Virus record (IMG/VR): IMGVR_UViG_2684623171_000015
From: a virus
Lineage: Duplodnaviria > Heunggongvirae > Uroviricota > Caudoviricetes
Reading direction: 5' to 3' (one strand)
DNA length: 9,387 nucleotides
Shown here: one piece after another, positions 1 through 3,000 of the stretch
How positions within the stretch are numbered: the stretch's first letter is position 1
Layout: each line of letters starts with the position of its first letter
Made by a program: the position numbers

Positions 1-3000
1 TGTCAGTTATCATCTTCGGTTACGGTTATCGGCAGAACGCCCTGCCGCTGACAAGAGCTTATTTGCCTGACCAATCTACTCCACATGATAGATAACTATC
101 ATTTATAACATTTCATTGATTAGTCTTTATTTTTCACTATGTTACAAATAACAACTCCGTCAAAAACAGCGAAATTAACTACACCATTAACTACACCGTT
201 TCACGAACAATATCGAACAACCACGAACAAAGATCAACACGCTTTAACCGTTATCATTTTCCGGCCATCCGTTATGAAGCTGGTGGATGTTCCCCGATAT
301 GGGTATCCCCACCTACCTGGCTTTTTTTCCGGTTAAATGTTAATCAGGCTGGTGGCCTTTACATACCCTTGATCACGGTAATGATGATTCAGGTGCGTAC
401 CTTTTCCCCAGTGGGGTAAAAGCTCCAACCGTAACGATGTTCGTTGTGGTTGCCTTGATGGTCTGCGTGGTCATTATGACCATTCAGAATTTGAAGGGTG
501 ATGTTTCCGATCTCCTCAAATTGAGGATTGTGGAAGAATCAATGGGTTAGTCTTACTTTCCCAACATCCCCCAATGGGGGTTTTCGAAATAATCAATGGG
601 TTAGGCCATAGTGCAATTTTGCACTATGGAACAATTCCAACCAGTTATCGGCATCAGGCCCACCAGCCAACGCAATTTTGCGCTTTGCTTTAATCTCAGT
701 AAGTTACCGCGCCAATTTCCGCAGTCTGTGGAAATTGGGAAGAATCAACGGGTTAGGCTGGTTTCCCCGATGTTCGCCGCTGGCGAATTTCGAAAATATC
801 AACCAGTTACCGCCGTATCCCGATATGGTGATCCCCATATCGAGATTGGATACCTGGCTTTTTTTCCGGTTAAACGTTAATCAGGCTGGTGGGCTTTACA
901 TACCCTTGATCACGGTAATGATGATTCAGGTGCTTCCCCGATATGGTGATCCCCATATCGGGATAGATGCTGGAAAAATCAGCTTTTCGCCAGAACGGTG
1001 ACGGCCTTATCGAGTTTTTGCCATCCGCAATAGGTGATTGCCCTGAACGCTGTAGCGTCATTCTGGAAAAGGCTAACCGCCCCTGATTCGGTTTTTATTA
1101 CCGCCTCATCAGTTGGGGTTATAACCGTGGCTTCAACGTTAATAATCAGCTTTTGAGCGTCTATCAGCATCATGCGATCCGCCTGTTCGCTCACAATTAC
1201 CGGTATTCTCAAAAGCTCTATCTGCCAGAACTCAGCATCAGTAAGCTGTAAGGCGTTTTCTACGGGCAATATTAGCGACGACGTGGAAAGCGTGTTACCG
1301 TTCGCTATGTGCTTTTTGAAAATCTCTATGAAGTTTTCGGCCTCATCAGCACCATTAAGCACGCCCTCAGGGGATACGCCAGCCACCTCCTGATCACTGG
1401 AAAGAAATTTTTTATCTATTTCTTTCACCGATTCCGATGTGATCAAGTCTCTGATCGCTGAATTTGTACCAGGGGTGCTAAATTTGATTAGCTCGTTATT
1501 CAGCATCACAATAGCGCCAAGTTTGCACAATTTTAGCGCACTTTCGTTTACTTCTCCCTCTTTGACAGGGATTTCTTCGGCTTCTTTAAGCCATTTACTA
1601 CCCTTGCCTGATATTGAATGCAATTTTGCGCCAAACGGAAGATTAAGCGCGCTGCTGATTAGCTTGCCTGGTACAGACTGCGAAAAAATATACTCGCCAA
1701 GCTCTCTTACTATCGGCTCTGCCACCAGCGACGGCATGTTATCCGTAGTCATTCTGTTGACGATGGATTTTTCAAGAAATTTCGATACTGCCGGATCATT
1801 TCTTTTCGTCATCTCTATAGCGTCAGCATGGCTAAATTTACACGATGCCAGCACGCTGGCGGCGCGAACTGCTGACACGCCTTTCATGTTTTTACAGATC
1901 ATCTTCTTCCTCCTCCTGGAAGCACGGGTTTAGTGTTTCGTGAAAATATGGCATCAGAACAGCGGCGGCCTGTAACCGTATTTCGGTCGACTGCTGCTTG
2001 TCGTTCATGATTTCCGTGAGTACATCAATAGGGTCTGTGATGTATTCGCTCATAGTTCGCTACCTCAGTGTTTTAAGTCTGTTGGTGGCTTAGGGATGGG
2101 GAACCGATTTGAGTAGACACTAGCGGCATTGAGTTTTTTAACCTCTTTTTTCCCAATGCTGCCGATCTTGCGGTGGGTGAACTGGGCCAGCTTAAACGCG
2201 GCATCTAAAGCCAGTTTTGGATCTGTGTCCATGTTGTCAATCAGTATCCTGCCCATTGCTTTGATGGGGTCGGGTAGGCCGTTATCCATCATCTCAATGG
2301 TGTTAATTGATGCCCGTTCCGGTGTAACTTTTTCGGTAACTTTCTTTGTAACTTTTTTCGGTTTTGTAACCTGAAAAGTTACATCAGAAGTTACAGCCTT
2401 AAGATACTTTTTCACCTCAGGATCGTTGGATAGCTGCCAGCCTTTAACCCTTGCGGTCTTTTCGCTGTATCCCGCATGTATAGCGGCTTCCGTGGGATTT
2501 GCGCCCCTTGATAACGCATCAGCAAACCGCTTTTTTTTGGTCGTTAATGCCATGCAAAAACCTCGTTTTGAGGGGGTGTAACTTTTCGTGTAACTTTTTT
2601 GAAAAGCAAAATTTTCTACGAATGAGACGGGGGGCGGTGTCCAGGGTGATCGACTTTCCGGCCGGAACACTCCCCCCCCCCATGTCATTGCTCACCGAGT
2701 AACGAGATCAGGCCTTCAACTTCATTACTCAGCTTGTTTATTCGTGTCTCAAGCTCTGCGATCTTTTCCATCAATGGCGCTATGGTGTCTCTTGTTTCCT
2801 CGCCAATGGCCTTAATGATGCTTGCCTCGCGTTCTGTGATAGCCATTTGTTATGCCTCACCTGTTGCAATGCCCAGTCTTTCGCGTAACAGCACACGTGC
2901 AAGATGACCTATTGTTGGCGTGGCGGCTCTGCCGTAGATGCCAGCTTCATTCATCCGGCGAATAACATCGAATTGAATTTTTTTAAGCTCGTTTAGGATC

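What the first reader, a model, noticed from the sequence alone, without database searches (positions are those of the whole stretch)
291..962. ~110-bp direct repeats bracketing the palindrome-rich segment, each tied to a GATC-centred inverted repeat
The segments 291-396 and 818-933 are about 98% identical over an 83-bp core. The inverted repeat CCCGATATGG-TGATCC-CCATATCGGG occurs three times: degenerate at 293-310, one mismatch at 819-844 and perfect at 937-962. Possible explanations are a duplicated attachment/boundary sequence (a tandem-integration scar with a remnant between the copies), a small repetitive or mobile element, or mRNA-stabilising 3' hairpins for the capsid-like gene. The central GATC suggests Dam-sensitive protein binding.
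Basis: seen in the sequence. Interest (0 to 1): 0.5.

Follow-up and report, generated by a model that had tools for sequence, protein, structure and literature searches.

The report
Duplicated boundary module in phage satellite
The two ~110-bp repeats are copies of a conserved non-coding module at the end of an E. coli phage-satellite island, not integration scars, and they flank an array of short sites copied from inside a helper-phage regulator gene (roi/ant).

Summary
In detail: 314-396 and 851-933 match at 81/83, and the GATC palindrome occurs three times (293-311 degenerate, 819-844, 937-962). The attachment-scar reading is refuted. The window is a 9.5-kb PICI-type satellite (Int, AlpA, primase, TerS, capsid-like) inserted between clpS and yljB/cspD, with its att core (ATAACTATCAT) at 92-102.

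The repeats are internal copies of a palindrome (P) plus 88-nt (R) module. R holds a T-tract, a Chi site and a sigma70-like promoter. About 950 of 5,426 E. coli genomes carry the module, normally once per satellite, beside at least four att types and alongside genuine lambda-type cos sites, so it is neither att nor cos. The second copy is lineage-specific. Otherwise identical O157 islands differ by a clean 118-bp indel between P2 and P3.

The bracketed segment is an array of at least six palindrome + IHF-consensus units with a fixed ~17-bp geometry. Four unit types carry the palindrome found at one position inside phage roi/ant (Rha-domain) genes, where (recalled, not checked) HK022 Roi and IHF bind.

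Most likely this is a terminator/promoter boundary module duplicated by recombination, flanking a protein-binding (Roi/IHF) or transcribed array. That function is inferred, not shown.

The parts
92..102 (.). att core ATAACTATCAT (attL). The same 11-mer is at attR, 9,530 bp away beyond int, and in the empty K-12 site at the 3' end of yljB.
175..229 (+). Arm-type repeats of attP: TTAACTACACC x2 (175-185, 187-197) and (A/T)CGAACA x3 (203-229). They are mirrored by similar repeats next to int.
   Evidence: Int has an Arm-DNA-bind_3 domain
257..286 (+). R0: a partial, diverged copy of the head of the repeat (TTTTCCGG...GTTATGAAGCTGGTGG) with Chi at 279-286. In sister islands this arm pairs with the sequence just before the T-tract to close a long hairpin around P.
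   Evidence: (D5)
293..311 (.). P1': degenerate copy of the GATC-centred palindrome (GATC changed to TATC, right distal arm missing). This is a common family variant (...CCCCACCTACC...).
314..401 (+). R1: 88-nt repeat, copy 1. T-tract 322-328, CCGGTTAA 329-336, Chi 348-355, promoter-like -35 TTTACA 358-363 and -10 AATGAT 380-385.
   Evidence: (D1)
400..487 (+). Three conserved hairpin modules. M1 is 400-422; its CCACCAATGGTGG variant in sister islands equals a site inside the SSU5 ant gene. M2 is 426-452, with G.T pairs on the + strand only. M3 is 463-487. The + strand RNA fold is -40.3 kcal/mol, z = -3.3.
514..809 (+). Array of six palindrome + IHF-site units. Palindromes: 514-526, 568-580, 606-629, 670-683, 712-738, 773-787. 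Perfect WATCAANNNNTTR sites: 537-549, 591-603, 743-755, 797-809. IHF-like sites: 635-647, 692-706. U1 and U2 match a site inside the roi genes of Stx/lambdoid phages.
819..844 (.). P2: GATC palindrome with one arm mismatch. With its flanks it folds (+ strand) into a -20.9 kcal/mol hairpin that ends immediately before the U7 run at 859-865.
851..938 (+). R2: 88-nt repeat, copy 2. T-tract 859-865, Chi 885-892, -35 895-900, -10 917-922. Together with P2 it forms the 118-bp unit that is absent from otherwise identical O157 islands.
937..962 (.). P3: perfect copy of the GATC palindrome (10-nt arms, spacer TGATCC).
969..987 (+). Small hairpin GCTGGAAAAATCAGC followed by TTTT, terminator-like on the + strand. 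It overlaps the stop codon of the capsid-like gene (979-1902, - strand).

Best explanation
The two repeats are two copies of a conserved non-coding 'P-R' module that marks the integrase-distal end of a family of E. coli/Shigella phage satellites (PICI-type islands).

Shown:
- The module consists of a GATC-centred palindrome (P), then a T-tract, a Chi site and a sigma70-like promoter that faces into the island (R).
- It normally occurs once, right after the attP arm. It is found next to at least four different att/integrase types and several different packaging modules.
- In this lineage a second P-R unit plus a third P sits between the array and the capsid-like gene.
- This 118-bp unit is present or absent in otherwise identical islands, with breakpoints that cannot be placed more precisely than within the repeated palindrome.
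- The segment between the copies is an array of palindrome + IHF-consensus units at a fixed ~17-bp spacing. These units are homologous to one position inside helper-phage roi/ant (Rha-domain) genes.

Inferred:
- P plus the T-tract acts as a + strand terminator or insulator against transcription entering from the att side, and R acts as a promoter. In this island, R1 (promoter) and P2/T-tract (terminator) would therefore delimit a ~470-nt non-coding transcription unit over the array.
- R2, P3 and the small hairpin at 969-987 would give a ~65-nt RNA.
- The array itself is most likely a cis-acting DNA platform that binds IHF and phage Roi/Ant-type proteins.
- The extra copy arose, and is lost, by recombination between the repeated palindromes or Chi-containing heads. 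It has nothing to do with integration.
For: Island identity and ends:
- The window is 100% identical to E. coli chromosomes, between clpS and yljB/cspD.
- K-12 matches only window 1-106.
- The att core and arm repeats were located.
- Int+arm domain, AlpA, D5_N primase, Terminase_2 and Phage_capsid are present.

Module distribution:
- 951 of 5,426 genomes carry it, at 1-4 places each.
- 76 viral-contig loci carry it, only 2 of them with two copies.
- In a collection with one genome per species, only Shigella flexneri matched.
- P nearly always accompanies R (32 of 36 loci).
- It is always adjacent to an att arm, and four arm types were seen.

Not cos: many sister islands carry lambda-type cosN/cosQ pairs 550-1,700 bp away and still have P-R. 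EcCICFT073 cos1/cos2 are lambda-type (PMC6092414 supplement).

Recombination:
- L087 equals the window over 107-978 minus a clean 118 bp, with zero mismatches.
- L037 shares 98.5% identity from the start of R onward but has a different att arm.
- Cassettes are inserted between P and R or between duplicated units.

Terminator and promoter:
- TTTACA-16-AATGAT is present in both copies.
- The P2 hairpin is -20.9 kcal/mol and ends at the U7 run.
- In 39 of 40 family variants the MFE stem ends within -6 to +4 nt of the T-tract.
- The M1-M3 + strand fold has z = -3.3.

Array:
- There are four perfect IHF consensus sites, all on the + strand and all within 537-809, against 0.61 expected.
- The palindrome-centre to IHF spacing is 16.5-17 in 46 of 52 units, across at least 15 different palindromes.
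- U1, U2 and M1-type units are 88-92% identical to sites inside roi/ant genes.
- HK022, JLK-2012, VT2-Sakai and SSU5 alleles each carry a different palindrome at the same codons, and identical or near-identical palindromes occur in satellite arrays.
- The CCTCAAATTGAGG box is found either inside Rha/Roi ORFs (93 hits) or non-coding downstream of R (60 hits).
- No satellite locus encodes an intact Roi/Ant protein.
Against: - No expression or binding data were available.
- The promoter scan as a whole is not above chance (3 found, 2.3 expected), and the simple terminator scan found nothing in 1-1100.
- In most family members the P stem proper ends 10-13 nt before the T-tract. The CCGG...T-tract...CCGG sequence can instead fold with the U-run in its loop.
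- Copy P1' is degenerate and folds no better than shuffles (z = +0.6).
- The -10 region differs between three tail variants.
- The test for + strand-specific G.T pairs was not decisive (103 vs 88).
- Chi is lost in some copies (L088, L090).
- That Roi binds this particular palindrome rests on my recollection of Clerget & Boccard 1996 (J Bacteriol 178:4077). That paper could not be read here; only its title is confirmed.
- Fixed spacing and shared palindromes could also reflect common descent without function.
Confidence: 0.5

Rival explanations
1. Neutral mosaic debris. The region would be a recombination junkyard: fragments of phage roi/ant 5' regions and of neighbouring satellites, accumulated by Chi- or Red-stimulated homologous recombination during co-replication with helpers. 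The duplicated P-R would be a by-product with no function of its own.
For: The region is extremely mosaic, with modules shuffled between islands. Similarity to roi extends weakly beyond the box (M3 resembles the GKRHDNV-coding part). The 118-bp copy is dispensable in nature. Breakpoints lie at the P|R junction just 5' of Chi.
Against: None of the roughly 90 satellite loci held when one search was run keeps an intact roi/ant gene; only the same ~50-nt segment recurs. Palindromes are as perfect as, or more perfect than, those in the coding copies (CCCCCAATGGGGG vs CCCCCAATGGTGG; CCTGCATTGCAGG vs CCTGCATTGCAGC). The IHF consensus and 17-bp geometry are kept in a non-coding context. All units have the same orientation. 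The region is retained in 951-1,730 genomes across att and packaging types.
Confidence: 0.2
2. 3' RNA elements of the late (capsid/terS) operon on the - strand. P3, P2 and the other palindromes would be stem-loops that stabilise or terminate the late mRNA. The read-through RNA could also carry antisense copies of roi/ant segments that silence helper roi/ant mRNAs.
For: The capsid-like gene ends at 979, and P3 follows 17 nt later. The - strand RNA folds to -25.2 kcal/mol (z = -3.4). No - strand terminator separates the gene from the array. The units are antisense to roi on that strand, with up to 38/38 identity.
Against: No U-run follows any - strand hairpin, whereas T-tracts follow them on the + strand. 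Most palindromes have 0-2-nt centres and 5-6-bp arms, which is poor for RNA hairpins but typical of dimer operators. In most islands P lies at the att side, far from the last gene. An antisense model does not explain the conserved IHF consensus and spacing.
Confidence: 0.12
3. Packaging signals. The duplicated palindrome module would be a pair of cos/pac sites, by analogy with cos1/cos2 of EcCICFT073, with the IHF sites helping terminase assembly.
For: Known E. coli PICIs carry two cos sites (PMC6092414, PMC6739421). Lambda cosB uses IHF. The module is palindromic and lies near the end of the packaging genes.
Against: There is no lambda-type cosN or cosQ near the repeats. Sister islands with bona fide lambda-type cosN/cosQ pairs also carry P-R. 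P-R is shared by islands with unrelated packaging modules: own TerS + capsid-like gene, full cf-PICI set, capsid + decoration protein, protease-capsid fusion. No phage in the 50,697-record collection has a similar sequence. Better pac candidates lie at 2317-2600 in or upstream of terS.
Confidence: 0.05
4. A miniature mobile element. The 118-bp unit (P + R) would transpose or be inserted at palindromes, duplicating the palindrome.
For: There is a 118-bp presence/absence polymorphism flanked by 26-bp direct copies of P. Other inserts are flanked by duplicated palindromes (L007).
Against: Copies occur only in satellites, at a fixed position and orientation next to att, mostly once per island. None were found elsewhere in chromosomes or on plasmids beyond 1 of 1,245 places. 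No transposase is associated. A 26-bp repeat is far longer than a target-site duplication and is sufficient for recombination or slippage.
Confidence: 0.04
5. One reading: duplicated attachment or boundary sequences left by tandem integration, with a remnant between the copies.
For: Direct repeats near one end of an integrated element are what att scars look like.
Against: The true att core and arm sites lie at 92-229 and beyond int. The empty K-12 site contains the core once and none of the repeat. The repeat is absent from the int-side junction. The same module sits beside four different att types.
Confidence: 0.01

Closest known systems
Roi/IHF site inside the roi gene of phage HK022 (Clerget & Boccard 1996; recalled, title confirmed)
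   Same: The architecture is the same: a short palindrome followed ~17 bp later by a perfect IHF consensus. HK022 roi has CCTGCATTGCAG + AATCAATGATTTA at codons ~43-56. Other roi/ant alleles carry other palindromes at the same codons, and identical or near-identical palindromes occur in the satellite arrays.
   Different: Here the units are non-coding, tandemly arrayed (at least six per island), of several allele types side by side, and located in a satellite that encodes no Rha/Roi protein. Binding was not tested.
RIP/RIB (BIME-1) elements of E. coli: REP palindromes flanking an IHF site at 3' ends of operons (own knowledge)
   Same: Both are extragenic palindromes combined with IHF consensus sites, located after the last gene of a transcription unit and repeated.
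   Different: The sequence family is different. K-12 BW25113 shows no copy beyond window 1-106 in the megablast search, whereas BIMEs abound in K-12. These units are restricted to satellites and homologous to a phage gene segment.
cos1/cos2 of the PICI EcCICFT073 (PMC6092414, PMC6739421)
   Same: Both are a duplicated cis-acting non-coding element near the non-integrase end of an E. coli PICI.
   Different: cos1/cos2 have lambda-type cosQ/cosN. P-R has neither, and it co-exists with such cos pairs in sister islands.
Intrinsic terminator followed by a promoter at prophage or island boundaries (generic insulator arrangement; own knowledge)
   Same: Both show a strong hairpin ending at a T-tract on the strand entering from the host side (for example downstream of phoQ in Sakai Sp7), followed by a -35/-10-like element.
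   Different: The geometry is canonical only in some variants, and nothing has been verified experimentally. The module also carries a conserved Chi site and a GATC-centred perfect palindrome that a terminator does not need.

Membership tests
attL/attR duplication of an integrated element | The same sequence is present at both junctions and once in the empty site. | tested here: not met
   The core ATAACTATCAT at 92-102, at attR and in K-12 fulfils this. The 88-nt repeat and the palindrome do not: they are absent from the int-side junction and from K-12.
PICI-type phage satellite (context of the finding) | ~10-kb island with a tyrosine integrase, AlpA regulator and primase/replicase, no tail or lysis genes, flanked by att repeats. 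| tested here: met
   Int + Arm-DNA-bind_3, Phage_AlpA, D5_N/DUF5906 primase, DUF4222, Terminase_2 and Phage_capsid are present. The island is 9,530 bp core to core.
PICI-type phage satellite (context of the finding) | Induction, packaging and transfer by a helper phage. | not testable with these tools
   No experimental data. The sister element Sakai Sp7/EcCIEDL933 is an experimentally studied cf-PICI (10.1101/2022.09.08.507074).
lambda-type cos site (as in EcCICFT073 cos1/cos2) | cosN GGGCGGCGACCT with an adjacent cosQ. | tested here: not met
   The only near match is at 4314-4325(-), inside the primase gene. There is none in 1-1000. Sister islands have real cosN/cosQ pairs in addition to P-R.
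IHF binding site | Consensus WATCAANNNNTTR. | tested here: met
   There are four perfect matches, all on the + strand and all within 537-809, against 0.61 expected in the whole window. Binding itself was not tested.
Roi/Rha-protein operator (roi-internal site) | Sequence identity with the palindrome + IHF segment inside roi/ant genes. | tested here: met
   Window 499-555 is 90-91% identical to JLK-2012/Stx1-phage roi, and 566-605 is 87.5% identical to VT2-Sakai roi. Palindromes matching the HK022 and SSU5 alleles occur in sister arrays.
Roi/Rha-protein operator (roi-internal site) | Specific binding by the cognate Roi/Ant protein, stabilised by IHF. | not testable with these tools
   This needs EMSA, footprinting or ChIP. 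The primary paper is not held.
Rho-independent terminator | GC-rich hairpin immediately followed by a U-run. | tested here: inconclusive
   The simple scan found none. Folding gives a -20.9 kcal/mol hairpin ending exactly at U7 for P2. In 39 of 40 family variants a stem ends within -6 to +4 nt of the T-tract, but with alternative folds.
sigma70 promoter | -35 and -10 hexamers with 16-18-nt spacing. | tested here: inconclusive
   TTTACA-16-AATGAT (9/12) is present in both copies, but the number of such sites in 1-1100 is not above shuffles (3 vs 2.3). The -35 is conserved across the family; the -10 differs among three tail variants.
BIME/REP elements | Membership of the REP sequence family, which is dispersed in hundreds of copies in all E. 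coli including K-12. | tested here: not met
   K-12 BW25113 matches only window 1-106 in the megablast search. The region is found in 1,730 of 5,426 genomes, at 1-8 places each.
Rfam RNA families | Covariance-model match. | tested here: not met
   There are no hits at gathering score in the window, and only chance-level hits at E up to 10 in 100-1000.

The most novel reading that the evidence does not exclude
The satellite carries a multi-specificity array of operator mimics. Each unit copies the Roi/Ant + IHF binding site that a different allele of the lambdoid-phage roi/ant (Rha-domain) gene carries inside its own coding sequence. The first two units here match the roi alleles of Stx1- and Stx2-converting phages, and the carrier list for this island includes many O157:H7 strains. 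Bracketed by a promoter/terminator module, the array would let the island sense, titrate or exploit an early regulator of many potential helper phages. That would be a DNA-level decoy or sensor not described for any phage satellite.
Probability: 0.25. Interest if true: 0.8.

Novelty: new variant of a known kind. Interest (0 to 1): 0.55.

Why it matters
How Gram-negative PICIs detect and manipulate their helper phages is still largely open. This work gives a conserved, previously unannotated non-coding end region, present in roughly a fifth to a third of complete E. coli genomes (951-1,730 of 5,426). It is built from copies of a site found inside a phage regulator gene. That yields a concrete, testable handle: it predicts direct binding of phage Roi/Ant proteins and IHF to satellite DNA.

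It also has a practical use. The repeats must not be used to call island boundaries or tandem integrations. They do explain small length polymorphisms (118 bp) between otherwise identical O157 islands.

Tried and rejected
- tRNA and Rfam scans of the window found nothing.
- A lambda cosN search found nothing near the repeats.
- A phage-collection BLAST of 240-980 gave no match for the P-R module, only the roi hits.
- A test for + strand-specific G.T pairs in all hairpins was not decisive (103 vs 88). An RNA-only reading of the palindromes was therefore not adopted.
- A small hydrophobic ORF over 434-550 was rejected, because its start codon and frame are not conserved in sister islands.
- An intact roi/ant gene in any satellite locus was looked for and not found.
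- The unit type GCAATTTTGCG...AGTTAC has no clear coding counterpart in viral contigs.
- Expression evidence was sought in Sakai data sets (PMC5597208, PMC4104026 supplements). Nothing was found for the Sp7 end region except a high Hfq signal on the adjacent phoQ.
- The Pas-sRNA preprint is unrelated.
- The Clerget & Boccard paper could not be retrieved, and no later paper restating the Roi site was found.
- GATC enrichment was checked and is absent.
- P palindrome hits in two high-GC viral contigs (L089, L091) are treated as probable chance 18-mer matches.
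Full report
**Observation**

- Segment 314-401 matches 851-938 at 84/88.
- The longest exact direct repeat in the window is 40 nt, against at most 15 nt in shuffles.
- The inverted repeat CCCGATATGG-TGATCC-CCATATCGGG is perfect at 937-962 and has one arm mismatch at 819-844.
- It survives as a degenerate left half at 293-311, with the GATC mutated to TATC.
- Each 88-nt repeat also holds a T7 tract, a Chi octamer (348-355, 885-892) and a TTTACA-16-AATGAT element on the + strand.
- A third, diverged copy of the repeat head, again with Chi, lies at 257-286.

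**What the window is**

The window is 100% identical to chromosomes of O157:H7, O103:H2 and other E. coli strains. In strain 2014C-3061 it lies between clpS and yljB/cspD.

The genes, all on the - strand, are:
- a tyrosine integrase with an arm-binding domain;
- an AlpA regulator;
- a D5_N-type primase;
- a DUF4222 protein;
- a Terminase_2 small terminase;
- a weak Phage_capsid homologue at 979-1902.

This is the gene set of a PICI-type phage satellite.

**Where the att sites are**

Of 5,426 complete genomes, 5,425 match some part of window 1-1000. All sampled genomes without the island, including K-12 BW25113, match only positions 1-106.
- K-12 reads ...GATAGATAACTATCAT|CTATCGTTGG...
- The window reads ...GATAGATAACTATCAT|TTATAAC...
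- The junction beyond int reads ...GATAAATAACTATCAT|CTATCGTTGG...

The att core is therefore ATAACTATCAT at window 92-102 and again 9,530 bp away. It is flanked on both inner sides by arm-type repeats: TTAACTACACC twice, plus (A/T)CGAACA copies.

The finding's repeats start about 190 bp inside the island. They are absent from the int-side junction and from the empty site. The attachment-scar interpretation is refuted.

**What the repeat is**

A distant search of 815-965 finds the palindrome + repeat module ('P-R') in 951 of 5,426 genomes, at 1-4 places each and almost never on plasmids. A pattern scan finds it in 76 viral-contig loci of satellite size, and only two of these have two copies. 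In a collection with one genome per species, only Shigella flexneri has it. The P palindrome is practically always found with R (32 of 36 loci).

In every locus examined the module sits directly after an att arm at the end opposite int. At least four unrelated arm and integration-site types were seen: clpS/yljB, phoQ, a 'GATGAGCGGCATCCGTCATAAAGCTGGTGG' type, and yejO. It accompanies different packaging modules:
- own TerS + capsid-like gene (this window);
- the full capsid-forming set of Sakai Sp7, which corresponds to the described cf-PICI EcCIEDL933;
- capsid + decoration protein;
- a protease-capsid fusion.

Many sister islands carry genuine lambda-type cosN/cosQ pairs 550-1,700 bp away, like the published cos1/cos2 of EcCICFT073, and still have P-R. 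This window has no lambda-type cosN near the repeats. P-R is thus neither att nor cos. It is a conserved, family-specific boundary module.

**Origin of the second copy**

O157:H7 strain Z1766 has the same region with zero mismatches except for a clean 118-bp deletion. This is exactly the P2-to-P3 period, and it removes R2. So the extra unit is gained or lost by recombination or slippage between the 26-bp palindrome copies.

A sister island at the phoQ site (L037) has a different att arm and R-tail. From the first base of R onward it is 98.5% identical to the window, including the array, P2-R2-P3, the capsid-like gene and terS. The P|R junction, about 35 bp 5' of Chi, is therefore a mosaic breakpoint.

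Other islands have cassettes with small ORFs inserted between P and R (L006) or between duplicated palindrome units (L007). The two-copy P-R-P configuration is present in 33 genomes.

**The bracketed segment**

Between the copies lie three conserved hairpin modules (M1-M3, 400-487) and six units of the form [palindrome]-[~10 nt]-[AATCAAYGGGTTA-like]. All four perfect matches to the IHF consensus WATCAANNNNTTR in the window lie here, all on the + strand, against 0.61 expected. Across all loci, the distance from palindrome centre to IHF site is 16.5-17 nt in 46 of 52 distinct units. This holds across at least 15 different palindromes with total lengths of 12-25 nt.

**Link to phage roi/ant genes**

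The only phage-database matches to 240-980 are 40-57-nt stretches at 87.5-91% identity inside the roi gene of Stx and lambdoid phages. Window 499-555 matches JLK-2012 and Stx1a-converting phages. Window 566-605 matches VT2-Sakai and 933W-like Stx2 phages.

Roi is a Rha-domain + KilAC (ANT) protein. The matching DNA encodes residues ~40-56 (GVIRHPQIEDCGRINGLG). Four alleles carry four different palindromes at exactly these codons. In the three roi alleles an IHF consensus or near-consensus follows; the SSU5 ant gene has none:

| Allele | Palindrome |
|---|---|
| HK022 roi | CCTGCATTGCAG |
| JLK-2012 roi | CCTCAAATTGAGG |
| VT2-Sakai roi | CCCCCAATGGTGG |
| SSU5 ant | CCACCAATGGTGG |

Each palindrome recurs in satellite arrays, sometimes in a more perfect form than the coding copy: window 514-526 and 568-580, L008, and L003/L007.

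In viral contigs the box CCTCAAATTGAGG-N10-WATCAR occurs in two kinds of place. It is found inside Rha/Roi ORFs (93 hits) or in non-coding DNA downstream of an R module (60 hits), with 14 other non-coding hits. None of the satellite loci held when one search was run encodes an intact Roi/Ant protein, and the island has no Rha-family gene.

From memory, Clerget & Boccard (J Bacteriol 1996) showed that HK022 Roi binds a site within its own gene next to an IHF site, and that IHF stabilises the complex. I could confirm only the title, not the text. If the palindrome is that site, the satellite array is a battery of Roi/Ant + IHF sites of several specificities.

**How the module may work (inferred)**

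On the + strand, P2 with its flanks folds into a -20.9 kcal/mol hairpin whose last pair is immediately followed by U7. In 39 of 40 distinct family variants the minimum-energy stem ends within -6 to +4 nt of the T-tract. The closing pairs are often between the R0 Chi arm and the bases preceding the T-tract. This looks like a terminator facing transcription that enters from the att or host side, for example from phoQ in Sakai Sp7.

Thirty bases further on comes the -35/-10-like element facing the array. In this island R1 would start, and P2/T7 would stop, a ~470-nt non-coding + strand RNA across the array. The M1-M3 part of it folds with z = -3.3. R2, P3 and the small hairpin + TTTT at 969-987 would give a ~65-nt RNA overlapping the capsid-like gene's stop codon.

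The weaknesses are real:
- The simple scans do not exceed chance.
- Alternative folds exist.
- Copy P1' is degenerate.
- The strand-specific wobble test was indecisive.
- There are no expression data.

**Rivals**

- Neutral recombination debris explains the mosaicism and the dispensable 118-bp copy. It does not explain the recurrent retention of the same ~50-nt segment with intact palindromes, IHF consensus, spacing and orientation.
- 3' elements of the late mRNA, possibly antisense to roi, remain possible for P3. They fit the T-tract polarity and the tiny palindrome centres poorly.
- Packaging signals, a miniature mobile element and att scars are each contradicted by tests above.

**Comparison with known systems, and novelty**

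The closest known objects are the roi-internal Roi/IHF site, the RIP/BIME-1 elements (palindromes + IHF site; a different sequence family, and K-12 BW25113 shows no copy in the megablast search), the duplicated cos sites of EcCICFT073, and generic terminator-promoter insulators.

Literature searches found no description of this module or of a PICI-Roi link.

My assessment is as follows. The repeats themselves are an ordinary recombinational duplication of a conserved but undescribed satellite boundary module. The array they bracket is a new variant of palindrome + IHF arrays, with a specific and unexpected homology to a helper-phage regulator gene.

Noticed in passing
window 279-286, 348-355, 885-892, 4674-4681, 5829-5836 (+); 660-667, 1722-1729, 4413-4420, 6945-6952, 8496-8503 (-): Ten Chi octamers (GCTGGTGG) occur in 9.4 kb, five per strand, against 0.17 expected from shuffles. 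Sister satellites are similarly rich. This could protect against RecBCD or create recombination hot spots in a Gam-less satellite.
   Followed up: partly
window 3478-3706: Iteron-like direct and inverted repeats (GGTAGAGGGCTTT / CTACCCNTCTACCC) lie immediately downstream of the primase gene. This is the likely replication origin.
   Followed up: no
window 2317-2600: There is a cluster of direct and inverted GTAACTTTT repeats in or upstream of the small-terminase gene. This is a candidate pac/TerS recognition site for this island.
   Followed up: no
window 136-163 (- strand) and position 1: A sigma70-like element (TTGACG-16-CATAGT) points out of the island across attL towards clpS, whose start codon abuts window position 1. 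The insertion separates clpS from all but about 100 bp of its native upstream region.
   Followed up: no
window 92-102; L093 496-506: The att core overlaps the 3' end of the small-protein gene yljB in the empty K-12 site. yljB is annotated at the int-side junction in the lysogen.
   Followed up: partly
window 4314-4325 (-): GGGCGGCGACCC, one mismatch from lambda cosN, lies inside the primase ORF and is conserved in sister islands (L079, L037). It is probably chance.
   Followed up: partly
L003 11689(+)/12428(-); also L010, L012, L013, L017 and others: Many related satellites carry two lambda-type cosN sites in inverted orientation, about 520-870 bp apart. They flank a small ORF, and cosQ lies next to the second site.
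   Followed up: partly
L006 3080-3815; L007 3183-3920: Cassettes with small ORFs are inserted between P and R, or between two copies of the CCACCAATGGTGG unit. The region therefore behaves as an accessory-gene hot spot with palindromes at cassette borders.
   Followed up: partly
L013, L016, L213 (e.g. L213 2858-2900): TGTCAC repeats with 10-11-bp periodicity follow a conserved module (M4) in many sister arrays. They look like binding sites for a DNA-bending or packaging protein.
   Followed up: no
L089 2736-2755: The P palindrome CGATATGGGGATCCCCATATCG occurs inside a KilA-N-like ORF of a high-GC viral contig. It may be a chance 18-mer match, but it is notable given the roi/ant link of the other palindromes.
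   Followed up: no
window 7394-8167 (-): A 257-aa ORF next to int has no Pfam or PHROG match.
   Followed up: no
window 514-690, frame of the roi-like units: The first units are spaced 54 nt (18 codons) apart and stay open in the roi reading frame for about 59 codons (PQIEDCGRINGL...PPMGVFEIINGLG...), but with no start codon. This is compatible with chance (p about 0.06).
   Followed up: partly
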